A DNA stretch of 64,000 bases from Minisyncoccota bacterium (GTDB lineage: Bacteria > Patescibacteriota > Minisyncoccia > Phycocordibacterales > JAQTLZ01). The stretch's first letter is position 1; each line of letters begins with the position of its first letter. The stretch is from assembly GCA_028711065.1 (NCBI GenBank), contig JAQTSY010000001.1, forward strand, positions 22,610 through 86,609, given 5' to 3'. Shown here one piece after another: positions 4,679 to 63,362 of the stretch. The position numbers and the translations under genes are program-made. Below the pieces are notes generated by a model. The model made no database searches and was not told the DNA's origin. It worked only from the letters and a program-made list of their open reading frames with translations.

Positions 4679-5431
4679 ATGCTTTCAACTATTTACATTC
4701 TTTGGCTTCGACAAATTAAGCGATACATACGCTCCAAGTCTCGCATAATTGGTTCTCTTGGCCAGCCAATTCTATTTCTCTTGGCACTCGGATATGGGTT
4801 CGGGCCGGTTTTCCAGCAAGCGGGAAAAGGGAATTATATTAATTTTCTCGTTCCCGGAGTGGTTGGAATGGGAATTATTTTCACGGCGATCTTTTCAGGA
4901 ATTGAAGTGATCTGGGACAGGCAATTTGGATTTTTGAAAGAGACGCTTGTTGCTCCCGTATCTCGTTACAATATTATGGTTGGAAGAACTTTGGGGGGCG
5001 CAACCGTTGCAGTAATGCAGGGTGTTGTTGTCTTTCTTCTGTCGCTTTTTACTGGTTTCCATCCCGTATCTTGGGCAGTCATGCCTCTCGTTCTCGTTGT
5101 TATGTTTCTTGTCGCAATTCTCTTCACAGCTTTGGGCACTGCGATCGCTTCGAGATTGGAAGACATGCAGGGCTTTCAGCTTATTATGAACTTTTTGGTG
5201 ATGCCTCTCTTTTTCCTTTCAGGTTCTTTGTTTCCTCTCGGGGAATCTGGCCAGGGGGTCATAGGTACGATCGCGAAATTTGATCCGCTTTCATATGGGA
5301 TTGACGCGATGCGAGGACTTCTCGTCGGCGGATATCATTTCGGATTGGGGACTGATATAACAGTACTTTCTCTTATAACGGTTGTGTTCGTTCTTATTGG
5401 AGGTTATCTCTTTTCTAAAATAGAGATCTAG
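4679..5431 (+). CDS. ABC-2 type transporter permease
   Basis: Polytopic membrane protein encoded directly downstream of the ABC-2 ATPase. Confidence 0.75.
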   Translation: MLSTIYILWLRQIKRYIRSKSRIIGSLGQPILFLLALGYGFGPVFQQAGKGNYINFLVPGVVGMGIIFTAIFSGIEVIWDRQFGFLKETLVAPVSRYNIMVGRTLGGATVAVMQGVVVFLLSLFTGFHPVSWAVMPLVLVVMFLVAILFTALGTAIASRLEDMQGFQLIMNFLVMPLFFLSGSLFPLGESGQGVIGTIAKFDPLSYGIDAMRGLLVGGYHFGLGTDITVLSLITVVFVLIGGYLFSKIEI

Positions 5432-5435
5432 CAAT

Positions 5436-6368
5436 ATGGAAAATTCATCGAAGACCTTGAAGGGAAGCGCGCTTGTTGTGTGCGCCGCGCTTCTTTGGGC
5501 GCTCGACGGAGTAATACGAAGAAGTCTTTTCACTCTTCCTCCGATTACCATCATCTTTTTTGAGCATCTTTTCGGCGCCATCATTATTTTACCGTTTGTC
5601 TGGAAAGCGCTTGCCTCCGAACGTCTCCTTGTCCAGGAATGGCTCATGATCATTCTCATATCTCTTTTAAGCGGACTTTTTGGGACACTTTGGTTTACCA
5701 CCGCGCTTCTCAAATCCGGCTTCATCTCATTTAGCGTAGTTTTTTTACTGCAAAAACTTCAACCGATCTTTGCAATCTCCACCGCACGAATATTTCTAAA
5801 GGAAAAACTTACGAAAAAATATATTATTTGGGCTGTGCTGGCTCTGGTGGCTGCCTATTTTGTTACCTTTCCAAAAGGAATAGTAAATTTTTCTACCGGA
5901 AGCGGAACTGTTATCGCCGCTCTCTATGCACTGGGCGCAGCGTTCGCATGGGGTTCATCTACTACTTTTTCTAAAATCGCCCTGAAGAAAAGATCTCATA
6001 GTTATGTTACTGCTGTCCGGTTTTTCATCACAACCCTTCTTGCACTCTGTTTTATGATTATAATTCACCAAACTCCTTCACTCCATTATCCTAGTCTTTC
6101 CCAGTTCGCTCGCTTTGCTCTTATTGCAGTTTCGACAGGAATGCTAGCACTTCTCATCTATTACAAAGGCTTGCAAAAAATTCCGGTAAAGGTTTCTACT
6201 ATTCTTGAGCTCACTTTTCCACTTGTTGCCATTCTCATAGACGCGATTCTTTATCACTCGTTTCTTTCCTTCAGTCAGGCAATTGCAGCAATTGTGTTAA
6301 TTGCGAGTATGTATAAAATATCTACTATAAGAATTTCTGAAAATGAAACTTCTATTCAAAACAACTAG
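5436..6368 (+). CDS. EamA/DMT-family membrane transporter
   Basis: About 10 TM segments arranged as a duplicated EamA-like architecture. Confidence 0.65.
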   Translation: MENSSKTLKGSALVVCAALLWALDGVIRRSLFTLPPITIIFFEHLFGAIIILPFVWKALASERLLVQEWLMIILISLLSGLFGTLWFTTALLKSGFISFSVVFLLQKLQPIFAISTARIFLKEKLTKKYIIWAVLALVAAYFVTFPKGIVNFSTGSGTVIAALYALGAAFAWGSSTTFSKIALKKRSHSYVTAVRFFITTLLALCFMIIIHQTPSLHYPSLSQFARFALIAVSTGMLALLIYYKGLQKIPVKVSTILELTFPLVAILIDAILYHSFLSFSQAIAAIVLIASMYKISTIRISENETSIQNN

Positions 6369-6717
6369 TAAGACTGGAAAAGGGCGAGGTAAACTTCTCG
6401 GGTTTCCGACAGTGAATCTTGTTATTCCGGATGAACTTTCTTTGACCATGCAAGAGGGGATTTATGCCGCGCGCGCGACAATAAAAGAACAGAAATACGA
6501 AGCCGCGCTCTATTTCGGCACGGTCCCAACGTTTGAAGACGTTGACCATACTTTAGAGCTTTATCTTATTGATGCTGATCACCCCATCATTTTTGCCGGA
6601 GAAGTTGTTGAATTTCAAGTAATAAAATTTATTCGAGGAGTCCAAAAATTTGATTCTCCAGAGCTTCTTGTCCGCCAGATGCAGAAAGATGTTGAATCGA
6701 TAAAATCTATTCTCTGA
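6343..6717 (+). CDS. riboflavin kinase (monofunctional, RibF C-terminal-domain type)
   Basis: 'GKGRGKLLGFPTVNL' matches the flavokinase GxGRG..LGFPTAN motif, followed by 'EGIYAARA' and 'PTFED'. The gene overlaps the end of the upstream EamA gene by 26 nt. Confidence 0.85.
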   Translation: MKLLFKTTSKTGKGRGKLLGFPTVNLVIPDELSLTMQEGIYAARATIKEQKYEAALYFGTVPTFEDVDHTLELYLIDADHPIIFAGEVVEFQVIKFIRGVQKFDSPELLVRQMQKDVESIKSIL

Positions 6718-6744
6718 ATCATTAAATTCTGCTAGAATGGCAGA

Positions 6745-9330
6745 ATGTCTCAATTAAGAAAGCGAAACTCGAAGAGTGTACGGCTTTCTAGCCATGTTAT
6801 ACCAGAAAGGTACGAGCTTAGCTTGAAGCCTGATCTCGAGGCTTTTACCTTTGAGGGGCAAGAAGCTATTACTCTTATTCTCAAAAAAGCTACCAAGACG
6901 ATAACGCTTCACTCAAAGAATCTGGAGATAGAATCTGCTGAAGTAGAATTTAGAAAAGAGAAGATCTTTGCTCTTAAAATTTCGTACGATGAGAAGGCAG
7001 AGACTGCTACATTTTTCTTTCAAAATGAAATTCCTAAAGGGAAGCTTAAGCTCGCTTTAGTGTTTCGAGGAGTTTTAAACGATTTAATGCGGGGCTTTTA
7101 TAGAAGTCGCTATGAACACGAGGGGAAGACGAAACACCTCGCTACGACCCAATTTGAGTCAACAGATGCCCGTCAGGCCTTTCCTTGTTTCGATGAGCCA
7201 GCTTTGAAGGCAATTTTCGATATCTCACTTGTCGTTCCGACGAATCTGACAGCCATTTCAAATACCATGCCCTCCAATATCCGGGAGCACGAGGGAGGAT
7301 ACAAAACCGTTACTTTTGAACCCACTCCGAAGATGTCTACCTATCTCGCGGCATTTATTGTTGGAGATTTTGAATCTATTGAAGGAAAAACTGCCCGCGG
7401 AACTCTTGTCCGAATTTTCACCACTCCAGGAAAAATTCATCAAGGAAAATTTGCTTTGGAAGTTGCGAAAAAATCGCTCACGTTTTTTGAAAAATATTTC
7501 GGCATTCATTATCCGCTTCCTGCGCTCGACCTAATCGCCATTCCTGATTTTCAATCAGGGGCAATGGAAAACTGGGGTGCAATTACCTATCGAGAGACTG
7601 CGCTTTTGTATGACGAAGAACATTCAGCCCTCGCTACGAAACAGCGAGTGGCTATTGTGATCGCGCACGAGATCGCTCATCAGTGGTTTGGAAATCTTGT
7701 AACCATGGAATGGTGGACGCATTTATGGTTAAACGAGGGGTTCGCAACGTACATTGAATACCTCGCGGTTGACGCAATGTTCCCAGAGTGGGACATGTGG
7801 ACGCAATTTCTTATCGAAGACCATGGGGTTGCCCTCCAACTTGACGCTCTGGCAAACACTCATCCGATCGAAGTTCCTGTACATCACCCGAACGAAATTA
7901 GTGAAATTTTCGATAAAGTTAGCTATTCAAAAGGAGGAAGTGTGATAAGAATGCTTGCAGAGTATCTTGGAAAAGAAAATTTCCGAAAAGGCCTTTCGCA
8001 TTATTTGAAGAAACACAGCTACGCAAATGCAGAAACTGCTGACCTTTGGAAAGCCCTCGAAAAAGTCTCCGGCAAACCTGTGGCAAAAATAATGCGAGAC
8101 TGGACGGAGCATCCAGGATACCCAGTTCTCCAAGTTTCGCAAGTACAAAGCAAATACAATTTAACCCAATCACGCTTCTTCTCAAGTCCGATTTCGGAAA
8201 GAAAAATGAAAGACAAGACTTTGTGGCATATTCCTGTAATTTCCAAATCGAATAATAAAAGCGGAGTAGATAAAACCATTTCGAATAAAAAAACCTTTGC
8301 AGTTTCGAGAAAAGCCGGTTCAAAGTGGACAAAGATAAATTACGGAGAAACGGGGTTCTTCCGCACCGCATATTCTAAGGAAGCACTTGAGAGTTTCAAG
8401 GAGCCAATTGAAAATAAGACGTTTGGCCCAATTGATCGGCTCGGCATTATCCGAGATGCTTTCGCACTTTTGGAGGCAGGGAAAATCGATGCAGAAAGTG
8501 TGCTAACTCTTTCGGAGAGTTTTAAAAACGAAGATGATTATGCTGTTTGGGGAGAATTGGCATCTGGACTCTCTTCGCTCACCGGAGTTTTGCCAGTAGG
8601 CAAGTTGAAAAATGAATACAAAGAATATGCCGGAAAGATATTTCTAGGAGTTGTTAAAAAATTAGGCTGGGCTAAAAAAGACGAAGAAAAGCACACGGTA
8701 ACACTTTTGCGCTCCCTTGTTCTTGGAAGTGCGGGACTTTACGGGAATAAAGAGGTTATAAAACGAGCACAAAGGCTTTTCCAAGATTTCATAGAAAAAG
8801 GTGCTCCAATTTGCGCGGATATTCGAGGCACTGTATACATGCTCGCAGCTCGTTATGGAGGAAAAAAAGAGCACGAAATTCTCACAGACCTCTACAAGAA
8901 AGAGAAACTTCAGGAAGAAAAAAATCGAATCGGGAGGGCGCTTGCGAATTTCTCGAGTGAAAAACTTATAGAGGAAACCCTCAATTTTGCCCTTTCCAAA
9001 GAAGTGCGAACACAGGATGCTTTTATTCTCATCATTTTGGCTTGGAGAAATCCGTACGGGCAGGAAATAACATGGAAATTTGTGAAAAAACATTGGGGTA
9101 AACTTTTGTCGCGGTACGGGGGAGCCGGAATCATTGCTCACATATTGGAGAGCGCTTCTGTTTTTGCAACAAACGAAAATGCGAAAGAGATCCTGAAATT
9201 TTTCAAAACTCATCCTGCACCTGGCGCGAAAAGAACTTTAGAACAAGCAATCGAGCAAATTTATTCGAATGTTCTCTGGAGAGAAAGGCTTCTGAAAACT
9301 TTGCCGGCATTTTTTAAAAAGAATAAATAA
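6745..9330 (+). CDS. pepN: aminopeptidase N (M1 family zinc metallopeptidase)
   Basis: 'GAMENWG' exopeptidase motif and 'HEIAHQWFGNLVTMEWW...LWLNEGFA' HExxH-(18)-E zinc site. Confidence 0.9.
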   Translation: MSQLRKRNSKSVRLSSHVIPERYELSLKPDLEAFTFEGQEAITLILKKATKTITLHSKNLEIESAEVEFRKEKIFALKISYDEKAETATFFFQNEIPKGKLKLALVFRGVLNDLMRGFYRSRYEHEGKTKHLATTQFESTDARQAFPCFDEPALKAIFDISLVVPTNLTAISNTMPSNIREHEGGYKTVTFEPTPKMSTYLAAFIVGDFESIEGKTARGTLVRIFTTPGKIHQGKFALEVAKKSLTFFEKYFGIHYPLPALDLIAIPDFQSGAMENWGAITYRETALLYDEEHSALATKQRVAIVIAHEIAHQWFGNLVTMEWWTHLWLNEGFATYIEYLAVDAMFPEWDMWTQFLIEDHGVALQLDALANTHPIEVPVHHPNEISEIFDKVSYSKGGSVIRMLAEYLGKENFRKGLSHYLKKHSYANAETADLWKALEKVSGKPVAKIMRDWTEHPGYPVLQVSQVQSKYNLTQSRFFSSPISERKMKDKTLWHIPVISKSNNKSGVDKTISNKKTFAVSRKAGSKWTKINYGETGFFRTAYSKEALESFKEPIENKTFGPIDRLGIIRDAFALLEAGKIDAESVLTLSESFKNEDDYAVWGELASGLSSLTGVLPVGKLKNEYKEYAGKIFLGVVKKLGWAKKDEEKHTVTLLRSLVLGSAGLYGNKEVIKRAQRLFQDFIEKGAPICADIRGTVYMLAARYGGKKEHEILTDLYKKEKLQEEKNRIGRALANFSSEKLIEETLNFALSKEVRTQDAFILIILAWRNPYGQEITWKFVKKHWGKLLSRYGGAGIIAHILESASVFATNENAKEILKFFKTHPAPGAKRTLEQAIEQIYSNVLWRERLLKTLPAFFKKNK

Positions 9331-31965: not shown

Positions 31966-32063
31966 TTCGACTCTCCTGCATGAGCAATCCCCATTGCTCA
32001 TTCGGGTCCACAAATCGAAAACCGCCTTTCGGCGGTCGATTTGTGGACCCGAGGAGAGTCGAA
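31966..32063. repeat. 28-bp inverted repeat duplicating tRNA-Ala nt 50-73 plus 8 nt of trailer, with a 25-bp hairpin insertion in the left copy
   Basis: Left arm 31966-31977 + 32003-32018 ('ttcgactctcct' ... 'cgggtccacaaatcga') is the exact reverse complement of 32036-32063. The arms surround the terminator hairpin 'ccgcc-tttc-ggcgg'. The inserted 25 nt form 'gagcaat-cccc-attgctc'. Confidence 0.6.
32010..32035 (-). terminator. intrinsic terminator of the tRNA-Ala transcript (also usable for ddl on the + strand)
   Basis: On the minus strand the tRNA trailer 'caaatcga' is followed by 'ccgcc-gaaa-ggcgg' and 'ttttcgatttg'. Confidence 0.6.
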
Positions 32064-32116
32064 CTCCTGACCTTTGCTTTGCAAAAGCACTGCTCTACCA
32101 GCTGAGCTACGGGCCC
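32044..32116 (-). tRNA. tRNA-Ala (anticodon UGC)
   Basis: Minus-strand sequence GGGCCCGTAGCTCAGCTGGTAGAGCAGTGCTTTTGCAAAGCAAAGGTCAGGAGTTCGACTCTCCTCGGGTCCA folds as a 73-nt cloverleaf. It has the G3:U70 Ala identity pair, anticodon loop tTTGCAa, a T-loop TTCGACT and discriminator A. CCA is not encoded. Confidence 0.85.
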
Positions 32117-58491: not shown

Positions 58492-59031
58492 ATGGAACCA
58501 CAAAAACAATCTAAAATATTAAAAGCTTCGCTTATTGCCGCTATTGTTATCGTTATAAATCTTTTCTTTAATTACACCCTTTCGCTTGTTTACAAAGAGC
58601 CGGCATATGACGCGTTCTGTCCAAACACCGCGCAAGTTATAAGCGCGCCTACCAAAGAACAGTGTGTTGCAAATGGGGGCCAGTGGAATGAAAATAATTA
58701 TGGCGGTCCAGTCCCTGTCGGGGAAAAAGCTCCGCAAGGATACTGCGACCAGCAATTTATGTGCAGACAGGCATTTGATACGGCGCAGAAAAATTACGAC
58801 CGAAATGTCTTCATCACTCTTGTCCTTCTCGGAGCCATCATCGTCGCCATCGGAAATTTCCTGAAAGGGAACGGCCTCATCAGTTCCGCGCTCTCACTCG
58901 CCGGAGTGCTCTCATTCATCATCGCATCGGTTCGTTACTGGTCTGCGGCAGATAATCTCATCAAAGTAATCATTCTTGGCATCGCACTTCTCATTCTGCT
59001 GTGGGTAGCCTACAAAAAGTTTAAGAACTAG
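58492..59031 (+). CDS. hypothetical membrane protein with a Cys-rich extracytoplasmic loop
   Basis: Two TM helices flank a ~90-aa segment with 4 Cys ('CPNTAQ...CVANGG...CDQQFMC'). The ATG is embedded in a CATG that is shared head-to-head with a minus-strand Met codon. Confidence 0.45.
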   Translation: MEPQKQSKILKASLIAAIVIVINLFFNYTLSLVYKEPAYDAFCPNTAQVISAPTKEQCVANGGQWNENNYGGPVPVGEKAPQGYCDQQFMCRQAFDTAQKNYDRNVFITLVLLGAIIVAIGNFLKGNGLISSALSLAGVLSFIIASVRYWSAADNLIKVIILGIALLILLWVAYKKFKN

Positions 59032-59067: not shown

Positions 59068-62000
59068 TTGTATAGTTTTTGGATGCAAAAGTATGATCAT
59101 CTAAAGATCGAAAGGAAGTGGCAAGCCATTTGGGAAAAGAAAAAACCAAATAAAGCTCTCGACAACTCTTCTAAACCAAAATTCTACGGTCTTATTGAAT
59201 TCCCATATCCATCAGGCGACGGACTTCACGTTGGCCACATCCGCTCTAATACGGCGATGGATATTATCGCCCGGAAACGCCGAGCAGAGGGCTACAACGT
59301 TCTATATCCAATCGGTTGGGATGCATTCGGACTTCCAACAGAGAATTACGCGGTAAAAACAGGAATTCATCCGAAAATCGTTACGAAGCAAAACACCGAC
59401 ACATTCAGGCGCCAGCTCAAAGCGCTCGGCTTTTCTTTTGACTGGACTCGGGAAATAAACACAACGGATCCCGCATACTACCGATGGACGCAGTGGATAT
59501 TTTTACAATTTTTCAAAAAAGGTCTCGCATACAAAAAGAAGATGGAAATAAACTGGTGTCCATCATGTAAGATCGGTTTAGCAAATGAAGAGGTCGTTGA
59601 TGGCAAATGCGAACGCTGTGGAGGACAGACAGAGAAACGAGAAAAAGAACAATGGATGCTTGCGATCACCAAATACGCAGAACGACTAGACAAAGACCTC
59701 GACACAGTTAATTTTCTCGAAAAAATAAAAATTCAGCAGAGAAACTGGATAGGGCGTTCCGAAGGAGCAGAAATAGAATTTCCGCTTGTTACGAATGGCG
59801 AAAAAAAGAGAACTCCAATAAAAATTCTCATCGGAACCCGAAACCCTGCAAAAATAGAAATGATCAAGAAAGGTTTCCCTGCAAATTCCGGAATCACTTT
59901 TCTTTCGCTGAATGACCTGCCGCCGATAGATGATTCTGATCTTGTAGAAGGAAATGATTTTCGCGAAAATGCGCGGATGAAATCTGAATACTATTTCAAA
60001 AAAACCGGCATCCCAACGCTCTCAACGGACCATATCGTTCACCTCGAAAATTGGCCAAAAGACAATGGTTTTATCGTGCACATTCGCAAACTGGCGAATC
60101 CCAAATCGCCTCGAGCGACCGACGAAGAGCTCGCGGAGTGGGTAAGTAAATACGTAAAAAAATCCGGCGAAACGAAGACGACCTATCACTTTGCAATTTC
60201 CGTAACTGATTCAAACGGAACAACAGATTTCGTCGGCGTTCAGAAGCCCTATATGCTCCAAGGAATCCGTTCAAAAGCGCCCAACAACGAAGGATATGTT
60301 TTTGATTCCTTCATGAAAGATAGCGATACGGGTGAGTTTCGAATTGAACAGCCCAATCAAATAGCCTTCGAAAAATTTGAAAAAACGATCCGAGAGGAAA
60401 TATGCCCACACATAACGGGAAAGAGGAATATAAAAGTATTTACTACCCGAGCTGACACCATCTTCAGCGCAGCTTTTCTTATTTTGGCTCCTGAACATGT
60501 ATTAATCCGAACTCTAAAAGAAAAAATTACAAACTTTGCAGAGGTTGCACAATATATTACCCTCGCAAAGAAAAAACCCGAGGTAGAGCGGACAGCGGAA
60601 GGAAAAGATAAAACTGGAGTTGAGCTCAAGGGAATTAAAGCGATAAATCCTGCAGATGGAAAAGAAATTTCTGTGTGGATCTCTGATTTCGTTCTAGCAC
60701 AATACGGCACCGGAGCTGTTTTTGCGGATGCACACGACCAGCGTGATTTTGATTTTGCAAAAAAGTATAATATCCCCCTTACTGCGTCTGTTTTACCAAA
60801 GGATGCGAGCAAGCAGGAAGCTGTAAAAAAACTGGAAGAATGTTTCGAGGGGGAGGGGATTCTTTTCAACTCAAAACAATTTGATGGATTCTCTTCAGCT
60901 GAAGCTCGACCTAAAATCATTGCATGGCTTCAAGAAAAAGGATTTGCTTCGCCTAAAACAACTTTCAAACTCCGCGATTGGGTATTTTCCCGTCAGAGAT
61001 ATTGGGGCGAACCCATTCCACTTATCCACTGTGACAAATGCGCGAAATGGATTCCTGTTCCCGAAAAAGATTTGCCAGTCAAACTTCCTGAAGTAAAAAA
61101 TTATAAGCCCACAGATACAGGAGAATCGCCTTTGGCAGGAATCACAAAATGGGTAAACGTAAAATGTCCCGTCTGTAAGGGACCCGCAAAACGAGAAACT
61201 GACACTATGCCAAACTGGGCCGGTTCATCTTGGTATTATCTGCGATACATTGACCCAAAGAATAAAAAAGTTTTCGCAGACAGAAAAAAGCTTGATTATT
61301 GGACTCCTGTTGATTGGTACAACGGAGGAATGGAGCACACAACCCTTCACCTTTTGTATTCTCGCTTTTGGCATAAATTTTTATTCGATCTCGGCCTTGT
61401 TCCAACAAGCGAACCGTATCAAAAACGCACTTCGCACGGACTTATTCTCGCAGAAGATGGCGGAAAGATGTCCAAATCTCGTCCGGAATCGATCATTAAT
61501 CCCGACAACATCATAAAAAATTATGGTGCGGATACTTTGCGCATCTACGAAATGTTTATGGGTCCATTTGATCAGCCAGTCGTGTGGTCAAGCGAATCAA
61601 TGATCGGCTCGCGAAGATTTCTTGAGAAAATCTGGCGGCTTCAAGAAAAAGTTGCTCCAGATTCCAAGCTGACAGCTGACAGCTCTAACCTGAAAGCTGC
61701 CCTAAATCAGACAATCAAAAAAGTTACCGACGATATTGAAGGCATGAAGTTCAACACGGCGATCAGTTCTATGATGGTACTCCTGAACCGGCTCGAAACT
61801 GAAGAAAAAATCGGAAAAGATGTGTTTGAAACACTCCTCATCCTCGTCGCCCCTTTCGCGCCCCATATCGCAGAAGAATTATGGGCCTTGATCGGCAATA
61901 AAAATGCGATAAGCGATGCGCCATGGCCAAAATACGACAACACGCTTCTTGGAGCATCTTCATTTACCATCGTAGTGCAAGTAAATGGAAAAGTGCGCGG

Positions 62001-62145
62001 AGAATTTAAAGTCGAAAGCGAGATAGGGGAGGAGGAGACGAAGAAAAAGGCTCTTTCACTTCCAGAAACAATGAAGTGGATGGATGGAAAGACCGCGAAA
62101 AAAATTATCTACGTAAAAAATAAATTGGTGAGTATTGTCATCTAA
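59068..62145 (+). CDS. leuS: leucyl-tRNA synthetase with an inserted Ham1/ITPase-like domain
   Basis: 'HVGHIRSNTAMDIIAR' (HIGH), 'KMSKS', 'QRNWIGRSEGAEIEF' and 'VFTTRADTIFSA' are present. About 200 extra residues (59815-60430) lie between the last two motifs. Confidence 0.9.
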   Translation: MYSFWMQKYDHLKIERKWQAIWEKKKPNKALDNSSKPKFYGLIEFPYPSGDGLHVGHIRSNTAMDIIARKRRAEGYNVLYPIGWDAFGLPTENYAVKTGIHPKIVTKQNTDTFRRQLKALGFSFDWTREINTTDPAYYRWTQWIFLQFFKKGLAYKKKMEINWCPSCKIGLANEEVVDGKCERCGGQTEKREKEQWMLAITKYAERLDKDLDTVNFLEKIKIQQRNWIGRSEGAEIEFPLVTNGEKKRTPIKILIGTRNPAKIEMIKKGFPANSGITFLSLNDLPPIDDSDLVEGNDFRENARMKSEYYFKKTGIPTLSTDHIVHLENWPKDNGFIVHIRKLANPKSPRATDEELAEWVSKYVKKSGETKTTYHFAISVTDSNGTTDFVGVQKPYMLQGIRSKAPNNEGYVFDSFMKDSDTGEFRIEQPNQIAFEKFEKTIREEICPHITGKRNIKVFTTRADTIFSAAFLILAPEHVLIRTLKEKITNFAEVAQYITLAKKKPEVERTAEGKDKTGVELKGIKAINPADGKEISVWISDFVLAQYGTGAVFADAHDQRDFDFAKKYNIPLTASVLPKDASKQEAVKKLEECFEGEGILFNSKQFDGFSSAEARPKIIAWLQEKGFASPKTTFKLRDWVFSRQRYWGEPIPLIHCDKCAKWIPVPEKDLPVKLPEVKNYKPTDTGESPLAGITKWVNVKCPVCKGPAKRETDTMPNWAGSSWYYLRYIDPKNKKVFADRKKLDYWTPVDWYNGGMEHTTLHLLYSRFWHKFLFDLGLVPTSEPYQKRTSHGLILAEDGGKMSKSRPESIINPDNIIKNYGADTLRIYEMFMGPFDQPVVWSSESMIGSRRFLEKIWRLQEKVAPDSKLTADSSNLKAALNQTIKKVTDDIEGMKFNTAISSMMVLLNRLETEEKIGKDVFETLLILVAPFAPHIAEELWALIGNKNAISDAPWPKYDNTLLGASSFTIVVQVNGKVRGEFKVESEIGEEETKKKALSLPETMKWMDGKTAKKIIYVKNKLVSIVI

Positions 62146-62327: not shown

Positions 62328-63362
62328 ATGACACCAGCAATCAAATTCAAACCAAAACAGATTACCAAGAAGCTTTTGGGCGTTCTCCCGGCTCGTGCTC
62401 GGGATGTGCTCGTAAGCCGTTTTGGGCTTGGTGCAAAGGCGGAACGAATGACTCTCGAAGCAATCGGAAAAACATACAACATCACTCGAGAACGAGTTCG
62501 ACAGATCGAAAACTACGCGATCCACAACATCAAGAAATCTGAAGGCTACAAGAAAGAAAAGGCTGCTTTTGACGAGCTCGAAGCGATCCTTCACGAAATG
62601 GGCGGATTTGTTGCGGAAGAGGATTTTCTCAATCATCTTGCAAAAGACGCTTCTACCCAGAACCATATCAACTTCCTTATGATTTTGAGCCACAATTTCA
62701 AACGAGAGAAAGAAGACGATGAATTCAAGCACCGATGGTATGTCGATGACGCCCTTTCTGCAAAGGTACACGAATCACTGCGAAAACTGTACAAAAATCT
62801 CGGCGACGACGATATTATTCCGGAATCAGAGATCATCAACACTTTCCTTGACTATGTAAAAGATCTTTCTGATCATTTCAAAAAAGAAGAGATCATTAAA
62901 CGATGGCTTTCGGTTTCAAAAAAGATCGGACGAAATCCAATGGGCGAATGGGGTCTTACATCTTCTCCAAACATCAAAGCGAAAGGAATGAGAGACTATG
63001 CATTTCTCGTTATCCGAAAGCACGGCTCTCCGATCCACTTCACTCAAGTTGCAAAAGCAATTACTGACACCTTCAAAAAGAAGGCTCACGTCGCAACCTG
63101 TCACAACGAACTCATCAAAGATCCTCGATTTGTGCTTGTAGGACGCGGACTCTACGCTCTTTCTGAATGGGGATATCTTTCAGGAGTGGTAAAAGATGTC
63201 ATCAAGAAAGTTCTCGAGAAACACGGACCATTGACCAAACAAGAAATCATCGAAAAAGTGCTCAAAGAACGATATGTCAAGGAGAACACCATTGCGATCA
63301 ATCTCCAAAACTCAAAACACTTTAAGAAAGACAAAGACGCAAAATACTCTCTCGTAGGATAA
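62328..63362 (+). CDS. sigma-70 region-4-like HTH domain protein with an uncharacterised C-terminal domain
   Basis: 'TLEAIGKTYNITRERVRQIENYAI' matches the sigma70 region 4.2 consensus (TLEEVG..F.VTRERIRQIE). The remaining ~270 aa have no motif. Confidence 0.5.
   Translation: MTPAIKFKPKQITKKLLGVLPARARDVLVSRFGLGAKAERMTLEAIGKTYNITRERVRQIENYAIHNIKKSEGYKKEKAAFDELEAILHEMGGFVAEEDFLNHLAKDASTQNHINFLMILSHNFKREKEDDEFKHRWYVDDALSAKVHESLRKLYKNLGDDDIIPESEIINTFLDYVKDLSDHFKKEEIIKRWLSVSKKIGRNPMGEWGLTSSPNIKAKGMRDYAFLVIRKHGSPIHFTQVAKAITDTFKKKAHVATCHNELIKDPRFVLVGRGLYALSEWGYLSGVVKDVIKKVLEKHGPLTKQEIIEKVLKERYVKENTIAINLQNSKHFKKDKDAKYSLVG

What the first reader, a model, noticed from the sequence alone, without database searches (positions are those of the whole stretch)
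59815..60430. Ham1/ITPase-like (non-canonical NTP pyrophosphatase fold) domain inserted inside leucyl-tRNA synthetase
Seen in sequence: LeuRS is one uninterrupted 1025-aa ORF. In canonical LeuRS only ~12 residues separate 'NWIGRSEG.EI.F' from 'V(F/Y)TTRPDT'. Here ~200 residues intervene. They carry Ham1/RdgB-family motifs in the correct order and spacing: 'KILIGTRNPAKIEMI' (cf. ATGNxGKxxE), 'EGNDFRENARMKSEY' (cf. EE.TF.ENA..KA), 'TDHIV' at the DDSGL position, and 'EGYVFDSFM' (cf. GFGYDPIF). Some catalytic acidic residues are substituted. Inference: LeuRS has acquired a (possibly non-catalytic) ITPase-fold module. This is an unusual aaRS accessory domain and could act in nucleotide sanitation, tRNA/nucleotide binding or regulation.
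Basis: partly seen in the sequence, partly recalled or inferred. Interest (0 to 1): 0.7.

Follow-up and report, generated by a model that had tools for sequence, protein, structure and literature searches.

The report
Ham1-fold hydrolase domain inside LeuRS
The leucyl-tRNA synthetase of this Paceibacteria (CPR) bacterium carries a real, well-conserved Ham1/ITPase-fold nucleotide-hydrolase domain spliced in just before its editing domain. The same module sits inside LeuRS, or as a separate gene directly upstream of leuS, in dozens of related genomes, so it looks like an undescribed accessory part of the enzyme.

Summary
Window 59068-62145 (+) is one uninterrupted LeuRS ORF, and residues ~250-455 (59815-60432) form an extra domain between the linker NWIGRSEGAEIEF and VFTTRADT.

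The fold is Ham1/RdgB/ITPase:
- AF2 with a 58-sequence alignment gives pLDDT 92.5.
- A profile of the module hits RdgB/Ham1 PDB sequences at 1e-14 to 1e-16.

It is not an RdgB equivalog. It scores 18-26 bits against cut-offs of 145-272, the SHR specificity motif is absent, and the first Asp of DDSG is lost. The phosphate- and metal-binding residues (T257, N259, K262, E294, K305, D321) are 98-100% conserved across 44 LeuRS-embedded copies.

The module is lineage-specific (Paceibacteria/Patescibacteria):
- 31 of 35 metagenome loci and 27 of 28 full-length module loci in GTDB species representatives are embedded in LeuRS.
- Two insertion sites are used.
- Most free-standing copies lie immediately upstream of leuS.
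- Related Ham1 subfamilies are never near leuS.
- Module and LeuRS-core phylogenies disagree, which indicates cassette exchange.
- Sister LeuRSs also carry NUDIX and Ser-hydrolase inserts.

Most likely this is a LeuRS-coupled nucleotide pyrophosphohydrolase with non-ITP specificity. Its substrate is unknown. I found no literature on it.

The parts
59068..62145 (+). leuS ORF. 1025 aa from TTG; the likely true start is the ATG at 59083, giving 1020 aa. This is a bacterial-type LeuRS hosting the insert.
   Evidence: NCBIfam TIGR00396 leuS_bact scores 956 bits against a cut-off of 548. Pfam finds tRNA-synt_1, tRNA-synt_1_2 and Anticodon_1. The protein is 100% identical to NCBI MDD5050196.1.
59227..59238 (+). 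HIGH motif (HVGH, aa 54-57) of the synthetic site, intact.
   Evidence: read directly from the sequence.
59557..59619 (+). ZN1 zinc knuckle (CPSC...CERC, aa 164-184), which precedes the insertion region.
   Evidence: [quoted passage not shown]
59743..59781 (+). N-terminal beta-linker to CP1 (NWIGRSEGAEIEF, aa 226-238). 'Site A' lies just before this segment in relatives. 'Site B', the one used in this window, lies just after it.
59782..59814 (+). Short connector PLVTNGEKKRT (aa 239-249) leading into the inserted domain.
   Evidence: It has low pLDDT (block mean 71) in the model.
59815..60432 (+). Inserted Ham1/ITPase-fold domain (aa 250-455).
59833..59853 (+). Phosphate-binding motif G-T-R-N-P-A-K (T257, N259, K262), equivalent to RdgB T8/N10/K13.
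   Evidence: Alignment. 100% conserved in 44 embedded copies. K13 and N10 of RdgB are needed for activity, as cited in PMC8893687.
59944..59982 (+). VEGNDFRENARMK (E294, N301, K305), equivalent to the canonical EE-G-xTF-ENA-xx-K motif.
60019..60039 (+). LSTDHIV (T320, D321) at the canonical DDSGL position. The second Asp is kept; the first is replaced by Thr.
60289..60339 (+). EGYVFDSFMKDSDTGEF, equivalent to the canonical GFGYDPIF...G(K)T(F)AE base-binding region. It is diverged from the canonical sequence.
60355..60378 (+). NQIAFEKF, at the position where canonical ITPases carry the K..ISHR specificity signature. The SHR motif is absent here.
   Evidence: The SHR role is taken from PMC5075207.
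60433..60990 (+). CP1 editing domain (from VFTTRADT, aa 457-464, through GTGAVFADAHDQRD, aa 547-560). The editing motifs are retained.
   Evidence: Pfam PF13603 at 3e-52 over aa 452-621.
61465..61479 (+). KMSKS motif (aa 800-804), intact.

Best explanation
The segment is a genuine Ham1/RdgB/ITPase-fold domain. It belongs to a divergent clade of the family that lacks the SHR motif and keeps only one Asp of DDSG. It is inserted in frame into a functional bacterial-type LeuRS, at the hinge between the ZN1/beta-linker and the CP1 editing domain.

It is a lineage-specific accessory module of Paceibacteria/Patescibacteria LeuRS, not a one-off. Evolutionarily it is tied to LeuRS in three arrangements: a separate gene directly upstream of leuS, an insert before the linker (site A), or an insert after it (site B, this window). 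Modules have been swapped between LeuRS lineages.

Mechanism, inferred: the domain keeps the triphosphate- and metal-binding residues of Ham1 enzymes, so it most likely still binds a nucleotide and cleaves a phosphoanhydride at the alpha-phosphate. It has lost the hypoxanthine/xanthine specificity pocket, so its substrate is probably not ITP/XTP. Because it is held next to the synthetic and editing sites, it most likely acts on a nucleotide species linked to the LeuRS reaction. Candidates are an adenine nucleotide by-product, a non-cognate or mimic adenylate, or Ap4A-type products. Bulk-pool house-cleaning is less likely.

Shown: fold, homology, residue conservation, distribution, linkage to leuS, and module-core incongruence.
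Inferred: catalytic activity, altered specificity, and action in cis with LeuRS.
For: Fold and homology:
- AF2 pLDDT 92.5, pTM 0.86.
- Foldseek ranks 1-31 are all Ham1/RdgB/ITPA or the Ham-like KomB subunit.
- Profile against PDB sequences: 3.4e-16 for 3tqu and 4e-14 for E. coli RdgB.
- phmmer reaches PF01725 proteins at 1e-13 to 1e-8.

Active-site retention:
- G256, T257, N259, K262, E294, N301, K305, D321, H338, R340, D352 and E354 are 95-100% conserved (all but E354 at least 98%) in 44 embedded copies that are otherwise 45-60% identical.
- The K13 and N10 equivalents are required in RdgB/ITPA (PMC8893687).

Host intact:
- HIGH, KMSKS and the CP1 motifs are present.
- leuS_bact scores 956 bits.
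- This is the only LeuRS in the window.

Distribution:
- 41 of the 120 best LeuRS relatives carry the module.
- 31 of 35 metagenome loci are embedded.
- 27 of 28 full-length module loci in GTDB species representatives are embedded.

Linkage to leuS:
- Free-standing copies P0007, P0009, P0005, P0326, L028 and L084 sit 11-290 bp upstream of leuS or overlap it.
- The P0007 locus is syntenic with the window.
- About 19 loci of the neighbouring Ham1 subfamily are never next to leuS.
- No N-terminal read-through fusions are seen, even though the gene lies upstream.

Cassette exchange:
- Window versus P0207: cores 96% and 84% identical, module 54%.
- The P0207 module is 74% identical to that of P0232, whose core is only 62% identical and which uses the other insertion site.
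- P0232 versus P0245: core 97%, CP1 88%, module 59%.
Against: - No biochemical data exist for any member of this clade.
- Pfam PF01725 does not detect the window's segment on its own.
- NCBIfam RdgB/HAM1 models give only 18-26 bits.
- The first Asp of DDSG and the SHR motif are missing, which could equally mean loss of catalysis.
- Adjacency followed by fusion can arise without any functional coupling, and two free copies (P0001, P0002) are not next to leuS.
- I could not model the full-length enzyme, so the orientation of the Ham1 pocket relative to the LeuRS sites is unknown.
- dS between the window and its nearest relative is saturated. Fast evolution of the module therefore cannot be separated from exchange on rate alone. 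The exchange claim rests on identity incongruence and an NJ tree without support values.
Confidence: 0.6

Rival explanations
1. Piggy-back house-cleaning enzyme. The domain is an ordinary non-canonical NTP pyrophosphatase, the cell's ITPase. It was fused to an essential, constitutively expressed gene in a reduced genome. There is no mechanistic link to leucylation.
For: - The Ham1 fold and conserved phosphate-binding residues are present.
- CPR genomes are small and rich in fusions (general knowledge).
- Sister LeuRSs also carry NUDIX domains, another house-cleaning family.
- No second Ham1 gene is present in this 64-kb window.
Against: - The SHR specificity signature, which is essential in ITPA (PMC5075207), is absent from the whole clade.
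- Scores are far below the RdgB equivalog cut-offs.
- The association is exclusive to LeuRS and specific to this clade.
- Only internal placement at the CP1 hinge is seen. The trivial N-terminal read-through fusion expected from an upstream gene is never observed.
Confidence: 0.22
2. Non-catalytic module. The Ham1 fold has been recruited as a nucleotide- or tRNA-binding element, a dimerisation element or a regulatory element of LeuRS.
For: - One canonical acidic residue and the SHR motif are lost.
- Ham1/ITPA proteins are homodimers (general knowledge), so the insert could dimerise LeuRS.
- The position next to the mobile ZN and CP1 elements (PMC13454842) would suit a regulatory role.
Against: - The residues that contact the triphosphate and metal in RdgB/ITPA are the most conserved positions of the module. 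This is hard to explain for a purely structural role.
- Free-standing copies keep the same residues.
Confidence: 0.1
3. Conflict or immunity module. The Ham1-like domain, together with the NUDIX, Ser-hydrolase and nucleotidyltransferase cassettes in sister LeuRSs, destroys LeuRS-directed aminoacyl-adenylate mimics, or repairs toxin-modified tRNA 3' ends. On this view it is under diversifying selection.
For: - dN is about 10-fold higher in the module and CP1 (0.42 and 0.35) than in the catalytic core (0.035-0.058) between the window and its nearest relative.
- Module exchange has occurred between lineages and between sites.
- Hydrolase cassettes are shuffled combinatorially at four hot spots.
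- GNAT genes flank leuS in L058.
- LeuRS is a known target of adenylate-mimic toxins such as agrocin 84 (my own knowledge, not checked here).
Against: - There is no PADLOC hit.
- No toxin partner was identified.
- dS is saturated, so positive selection cannot be shown.
- The whole argument is circumstantial.
Confidence: 0.07
4. Assembly chimera or mis-joined contig that creates a false fusion.
For: - The window comes from a metagenome-assembled genome.
- Two short database fragments do look chimeric: P0003 with a LysRS-like tail, and the GC-rich end of L001.
Against: - The ORF is uninterrupted and has uniform GC.
- The identical protein is deposited from a 153-kb contig.
- More than 60 independent assemblies show the same in-frame architecture with conserved junctions.
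- The syntenic ortholog L004 has it too.
Confidence: 0.01

Closest known systems
RdgB / Ham1 / ITPA non-canonical purine NTP pyrophosphatases (Pfam PF01725; TIGR00042)
   Same: - Same N-terminal (S/T)-x-N-x-x-K phosphate motif, the E...ENAxxK motif, and the second Asp of DDSG.
   Different: - The SHR specificity motif is absent.
- The first Asp of DDSG is replaced.
- GFGYDP is changed to EGY(P/V)x(D/E)S.
- A clade-specific invariant DD (aa 288-289) and an H-x-R motif are present.
- Scores are only 18-26 bits against equivalog cut-offs of 145-272.
- It is embedded in, or genetically linked to, LeuRS instead of being a free house-keeping gene.
CP1 editing domain of class Ia synthetases (LeuRS/IleRS/ValRS), the classic hydrolytic domain inserted into the Rossmann fold
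   Same: It is a hydrolase-fold domain inserted into the catalytic body of LeuRS at the same hinge. The survey PMC13114784 treats CP1 as an insertion-only module coupled to the synthetase.
   Different: - Unrelated fold and chemistry: a nucleotide phosphoanhydride pocket versus an aminoacyl-ester hydrolase.
- Restricted to one CPR lineage.
- Occurs in addition to an apparently intact CP1.
Ham1 domain embedded in potyvirid/secovirid polyproteins next to the RdRp (CBSV/UCBSV HAM1)
   Same: This is a precedent for a Ham1-family pyrophosphatase physically attached to a nucleotide-consuming enzyme, where its catalytic Lys and Asn are required (PMC8893687).
   Different: - That is a viral polyprotein context with cleavage sites, and a canonical ITPase-like specificity is proposed.
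- Here the domain is a permanent in-frame insert in an aaRS and lacks SHR.
aaRSs carrying extra enzymatic domains, e.g. NCBIfam NF040702 'isoleucine--tRNA ligase, N-acetyltransferase domain-containing'
   Same: An essential class I synthetase carries an additional small-molecule-modifying enzyme domain (family listed).
   Different: - The added domain has a different fold.
- I did not examine where the GNAT domain sits or whether it is related in function.
KomB, the Ham-like subunit of the KomBC (Kongming) complex
   Different: - It is no closer than house-keeping Ham1 proteins.
- There is no PADLOC hit.
- No KomC-like partner was seen, and the genomic context is entirely different.

Membership tests
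Ham1/Maf (ITPase-like) fold superfamily | Two-lobed alpha/beta ITPase-like fold, superimposable on solved Ham1/RdgB/ITPA structures. | tested here: met
   [not shown]
Ham1 family (Pfam PF01725) | Significant match to the family profile. | tested here: inconclusive
   - The window segment alone gives no PF01725 hit, even at E<=10.
- Close homologues of the module do pass: P0005 scores 41.6 bits, P0008 28.3 and P0012 23.5, against a cut-off of 22.5.
- A profile of the module hits Ham1 PDB sequences at 3e-16.
- Homology is therefore secure, but the window sequence itself falls below the Pfam threshold.
Ham1 family (Pfam PF01725) | N-terminal (S/T)-x-N-x-x-K triphosphate-binding motif (RdgB T8/N10/K13; ITPA T14/N16/K19). 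| tested here: met
   T257, N259 and K262 are 100% conserved in 44 embedded copies. The functional role is taken from PMC8893687.
Ham1 family (Pfam PF01725) | Acidic pair at the DDSG(L)/EDT position. | tested here: not met
   Only the second Asp (D321) is present. The first is Thr or Ser throughout the LeuRS-type clade, and is non-acidic in the neighbouring 'mid' subfamily.
RdgB/HAM1 ITP/XTP pyrophosphatase equivalog (TIGR00042, NF011397/8) | Score above the curated equivalog cut-off. | tested here: not met
   TIGR00042 scores 18.0 bits against 145.35. NF011398 scores 25.7 against 272. NF011397 scores 24.8 against 234.
RdgB/HAM1 ITP/XTP pyrophosphatase equivalog (TIGR00042, NF011397/8) | C-terminal SHR signature forming the hypoxanthine/xanthine specificity pocket (ITPA 176-178). 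| tested here: not met
   The aligned position reads (I/V)(A/R)(F/Y) in all LeuRS-type modules. The canonical proteins in the same alignment carry ISHR. The signature's role is taken from PMC5075207.
RdgB/HAM1 ITP/XTP pyrophosphatase equivalog (TIGR00042, NF011397/8) | Hydrolysis of (d)ITP/XTP to the monophosphate plus PPi. | not testable with these tools
   This requires an enzyme assay.
Bacterial-type leucyl-tRNA synthetase (TIGR00396 leuS_bact) | Score above the equivalog cut-off, with HIGH, KMSKS, CP1 editing-domain and anticodon-binding domains present. | tested here: met
   The protein scores 956.4 bits against a cut-off of 548.4. Pfam finds PF00133, PF13603 and PF08264. HVGH, KMSKS, TTRADT and AHDQRD are present.
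Anti-phage defence Ham-like proteins (e.g. KomB) / PADLOC systems | Match to a defence-system model, or a defence-type gene neighbourhood. | tested here: not met
   PADLOC gives no hit for the insert or for the free-standing homologues. The neighbours are house-keeping genes.
Intein / homing mobile element inside an essential gene | Hint splicing domain, homing endonuclease, or flanking repeats. | tested here: not met
   No Hint or endonuclease family was found in the window protein. There are no flanking direct repeats. One relative, P0318, does carry a DUF559 endonuclease-like domain at the same site.

The most novel reading that the evidence does not exclude
Paceibacteria LeuRS is a scaffold for exchangeable hydrolase cassettes: Ham1-like, NUDIX, alpha/beta Ser-hydrolase and nucleotidyltransferase. 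They are placed around the CP1 hinge and add a second, nucleotide-level layer of proofreading or immunity.

On this reading, the Ham1-like module has been re-targeted from ITP to adenylate-type ligands. Candidates are non-cognate aminoacyl-AMP, LeuRS-directed adenylate-mimic toxins, Ap4A, or modified tRNA 3' ends. It is swapped between lineages under conflict-driven selection, and reaches DPANN-like archaea as a gene adjacent to leuS.
Probability: 0.15. Interest if true: 0.9.

Novelty: new variant of a known kind. Interest (0 to 1): 0.72.

Why it matters
Class I synthetases are textbook examples of fidelity achieved through one inserted hydrolytic domain, CP1. This case shows an essential LeuRS that has acquired a second, unrelated hydrolase fold at the same hinge. 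The acquisition happened repeatedly and at two positions. Its sisters add NUDIX and serine-hydrolase domains.

The evidence for a functional partnership has three parts: fusion, conserved adjacency to leuS, and exclusivity to one Ham1 clade. That is the classic comparative-genomic signature of a functional link. It therefore points to an unrecognised nucleotide-directed activity coupled to leucylation in CPR bacteria, organisms with minimal genomes and scavenged nucleotide pools.

The finding offers:
- a defined, testable protein (MDD5050196.1) for discovering a new aaRS accessory function;
- a new substrate class for the Ham1 fold;
- a natural example of tolerated domain insertion next to the ZN/CP1 switch, which is currently a drug-design target.

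If the domain turns out to be only a piggy-back ITPase, the result is still a clear case of domain-insertion hot spots and cassette exchange inside an essential gene.

Tried and rejected
- Pfam on the isolated segment gave no hit, even at E<=10. Homology had to be shown by exhaustive phmmer, profiles and structure.
- Single-sequence AF2 was useless (pLDDT 40). It was repeated with a 58-sequence alignment.
- The first genome-contig scan, using the single protein as query, found nothing. It worked once an alignment was used.
- The afdb50 fold library was not available.
- 'Split LeuRS' idea for P0006 (Ser-hydrolase + Ham1 + the C-terminal half of LeuRS): rejected. The true ORF in L008 is 5251-9015 (1254 aa) and includes the N-terminal half. 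The database start was mis-called.
- P0003 (LeuRS linker + Ham1 + a LysRS-like tail, on a 1-kb contig) and the 3' end of L001 look like assembly chimeras. They were not used as evidence.
- dN/dS between the window and L004: dS is saturated in every segment (pS 0.67-0.81). Selection regimes and recombination could therefore not be separated by rates. I relied on identity incongruence instead.
- Flanking repeats or a target-site duplication around the insert: none beyond chance 12-15-mers.
- PADLOC defence models: no hit.
- A second Ham1 or LeuRS gene in the window: none.
- Eight literature searches (seven on a described Ham1/NUDIX insertion in LeuRS or CPR aaRS, one on Ham1 active-site residues) found nothing on such an insertion.
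- Whether contig L058, labelled 'archaeon', is really archaeal could not be settled from its neighbours. Only L005 carries clear archaeal markers.
Full report
**1. What is in the window**

Window 59068-62145 (+) is a single ORF of 1025 codons counted from a TTG. The deposited protein, MDD5050196.1 'MAG: leucine--tRNA ligase [Candidatus Pacebacteria bacterium]', is 1020 aa on a 153-kb contig. It starts at the ATG at 59083 and is 100% identical.

The protein is a bona fide bacterial LeuRS:
- TIGR00396 scores 956 bits against a cut-off of 548.
- Pfam finds tRNA-synt_1, the LeuRS editing domain and the anticodon-binding domain.
- HVGH, the ZN1 cysteines, KMSKS and the CP1 motifs TTRADT and AHDQRD are present.

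About 218 residues lie between NWIGRSEGAEIEF (aa 226-238) and VFTTRADT (aa 457-464). Insert-free relatives have 10-12 residues there. GC content is flat across it. There are no flanking repeats.

**2. Is the domain a Ham1 fold?**

Direct Pfam scanning of the segment gives nothing. A single-sequence AF2 model is uninformative, with pLDDT 40. The wider evidence is nevertheless consistent:
- phmmer against PDB sequences finds a dITP/XTP pyrophosphatase, 6wwd, at E=0.001.
- NCBIfam RdgB/HAM1 models give E from 8e-6 to 1.5e-3.
- An exhaustive phmmer over 1.84 billion representatives finds 236 proteins at E<=1e-3. Beyond the ten or so close relatives, these are ~200-aa proteins that pass PF01725.
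- A profile of the module and its relatives (A1) hits Coxiella Ham1 at 3.4e-16 and E. coli RdgB at 4e-14.
- With a 58-sequence alignment, AF2 gives pLDDT 92.5 and pTM 0.86.
- Foldseek ranks 1-31 are all Ham1/RdgB/ITPA or Ham-like KomB chains, followed by Maf.

The fold assignment is therefore secure.

**3. What kind of Ham1?**

I aligned the module with canonical proteins that carry DDSG and SHR.

Retained:
- G-T-x-N-x-A-K (T257, N259, K262)
- E294-G295
- N301-A302-x-x-K305
- D321

Not retained:
- The first Asp of DDSG is Thr/Ser.
- GFGYDP has become EGY(P/V)x(D/E)S.
- The K..ISHR signature is absent.

The retained residues are 98-100% conserved in 44 LeuRS-embedded copies that are only 45-60% identical overall. 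A clade-specific DD (aa 288-289), H338-x-R340 and D352-x-E354 (95-98%) are similarly conserved.

From the literature:
- The K13/K19 and N10/N16 equivalents contact the triphosphate and are needed for activity (PMC8893687).
- SHR forms the hypoxanthine/xanthine specificity pocket, and R178 is essential in ITPA (PMC5075207).

My reading is that the phosphoanhydride-cleaving machinery is kept under purifying selection while base specificity has changed. The module scores far below the RdgB equivalog cut-offs. I therefore file it in the Ham1 fold and family, but not as an ITP/XTP pyrophosphatase.

**4. Distribution and anatomy in relatives**

Counts:
- Among the 120 best LeuRS relatives, all Patescibacteria/Paceibacteria by their source names, 41 carry the module.
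- A metagenome scan gave 35 loci of this clade. Of these, 31 are embedded in LeuRS ORFs.
- GTDB species representatives gave 27 embedded loci, 2 partial ones and 1 free.

Two insertion points are used. Site A lies before the YLEKIKxQQxNWIG linker, at core position ~208-210. Site B lies after NWIGRSEGxEIxF, at core position ~239-241, and is the one used in the window.

The same lineage of LeuRS also hosts other domains:
- NUDIX, usually at the end of CP1 (core ~367-372), but also at site A or site B.
- Ser_hydrolase (PF06821), at core ~444, at site B or at site C.
- Tandem Ser-hydrolase + Ham1.
- Nucleotidyltransferase + NUDIX.
- Once, a DUF559 endonuclease-like domain.

The window's LeuRS has only the Ham1-like insert.

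**5. Link to leuS beyond fusion**

Most free-standing members of the same clade lie directly upstream of an insert-free leuS.
- P0007: the gene order is Ham1, then LeuRS (787 aa), then a sigma70_r4/HARE-HTH gene, DUF8128, YceG and MnmA. This is the same order as around the window's leuS and its ortholog L004.
- P0009: 11-bp gap.
- P0005, a Ser-hydrolase-Ham1 fusion: 40-bp gap.
- P0326: on a contig with archaeal markers S17e, tRNA-splicing endonuclease and aIF-1A.
- L028 and L084.

Exceptions are P0001 and P0002.

As a control, about 19 loci of the neighbouring Ham1 subfamily are never next to leuS. The exhaustive search found no other aaRS fused to this clade.

The gene sits upstream of leuS, yet I saw no N-terminal read-through fusion, only internal placement at the CP1 hinge. 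Fusion, conserved adjacency and clade specificity together are the standard comparative-genomic argument for a functional partnership.

**6. Mosaicism**

The window and its closest relative P0207 (syntenic locus L004) compare as follows:
- N-terminal catalytic half: 96% identical.
- C-terminal body: 84-92% identical.
- Ham1 module: 54% identical.
- CP1: 55-58% identical.

dS is saturated everywhere, so rates alone cannot separate relaxed constraint from replacement. The identities, however, are incongruent:
- The P0207 module (site B) is 74% identical to that of P0232 (site A), whose core is only 62% identical.
- P0232 and P0245 have 97% identical cores and 88% identical CP1 domains, but modules only 59% identical.
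- The nearest relative of the window's module is the free-standing P0001, at 58%.

In an NJ tree, free, site-A and site-B modules interleave (no support values). I conclude that modules have been exchanged between LeuRS lineages and between sites. How this happened is unknown.

**7. How it most likely works**

Shown:
- A Ham1-fold domain with conserved triphosphate- and metal-binding residues.
- It sits between the ZN1/linker and CP1, the region that choreographs movement of the tRNA 3' end between the synthetic and editing sites (PMC13454842).
- It is evolutionarily tied to LeuRS.

Inferred:
- It binds a nucleotide and cleaves at the alpha-phosphate.
- It has non-ITP specificity.
- It acts in cis on a species connected with the LeuRS reaction.

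I give this about 0.6 overall. Confidence in the parts is about 0.97 for the fold, about 0.7 for coupling to LeuRS, and about 0.55 for catalytic activity with altered specificity. For any particular substrate it is no more than 0.15.

Rivals:
- A plain piggy-back ITPase (0.22), weakened by the missing SHR and the exclusive internal placement.
- A non-catalytic module (0.10), weakened by active-site conservation.
- A conflict or immunity module (0.07), which is attractive but circumstantial.
- An assembly chimera (0.01).

**8. Novelty**

Sequences with this architecture have been public since at least the 2015 Parcubacteria bins (P0242 = KKU66582.1). One is even auto-named 'non-canonical purine NTP pyrophosphatase' (P0231). 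Even so, eight full-text searches found no description of a Ham1 or NUDIX insertion in LeuRS. That set includes a 2026 survey of domain-insertion architectures which discusses LeuRS CP1.

I rate it a new variant of known kinds: the Ham1 family, and aaRSs with accessory domains. Interest is 0.72. An aaRS specialist would be surprised by a second hydrolase fold, shuffled and exchanged, at the CP1 hinge of an essential enzyme, and the proposal is directly testable.

Noticed in passing
Related proteins P0208-P0324; core-LeuRS HMM positions ~208, ~240, ~370, ~444: LeuRSs of the same Patescibacteria lineage carry other in-frame domains at four recurrent hot spots. These are NUDIX (PF00293), Ser_hydrolase (PF06821), nucleotidyltransferase + NUDIX, and tandem Ser-hydrolase + Ham1. 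Protein lengths range from about 790 to 1536 aa. The same domain type can occupy different sites.
   Followed up: partly
L005 8001-8627 and 8652-11495 (also L006, L007): A free-standing module lies directly upstream of a 947-aa bacterial-type LeuRS. It belongs to the same 90% cluster as P0001, which is about 58-60% identical to the window's domain. The contig carries archaeal marker genes (Ribosomal_S17e, tRNA-splicing endonuclease, aIF-1A). This suggests transfer of the pair between CPR bacteria and DPANN-like archaea.
   Followed up: partly
window 60433-60990 versus L004: The CP1 editing domain is only 55-58% identical between the window and its nearest relative, although the flanking catalytic core is 92-96% identical. 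For both proteins the nearest CP1 relative is in a different, insert-free LeuRS (P0264 and P0296). The whole central block of the gene appears mosaic.
   Followed up: partly
P0232, P0245, P0219; L005 LeuRS: Several site-A LeuRSs replace the CP1 threonine-rich motif VFTTRPDT with TFSAHFEAF(T/C)ADTF or TFTTHHHTSYAEIF. Whether post-transfer editing is retained in these enzymes was not examined.
   Followed up: no
P0318 aa 233-590: One LeuRS carries a Ser-hydrolase followed by a DUF559/MTES_1575 endonuclease-like domain at site B. It could be a relic of a mobility function for these cassettes.
   Followed up: no
L001 692-1912: A reverse-transcriptase gene (RVT_1, 406 aa) lies immediately upstream of a Ham1-bearing leuS fragment. 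The 3' end of that contig is GC-rich and looks chimeric.
   Followed up: no
L058 2746-3273 and 6896-7663: GNAT acetyltransferase genes flank a 1202-aa LeuRS that carries Ham1 at site B and Ser-hydrolase at site C. The record is labelled 'archaeon', but its neighbours did not settle the domain of life.
   Followed up: partly
P0003 (1069-bp ENA contig): This fragment reads LeuRS linker, then the Ham1 N-half, then a class II LysRS-like C-terminus. It is most likely an assembly chimera and was not used as evidence.
   Followed up: partly
window 59068 versus 59083: The longest ORF starts at a TTG five codons upstream of the ATG used in the deposited protein. The true start was not determined.
   Followed up: no
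window 58492-59031 and 62328-63362: leuS is flanked by a 179-aa predicted membrane protein and a 344-aa gene whose counterparts in L004 and the P0007 contig are sigma70_r4/HARE-HTH proteins. That gene order is conserved in L004 and in the P0007 contig. The only RNA gene in the 64-kb window is tRNA-Ala(TGC) at 32043-32116.
   Followed up: partly
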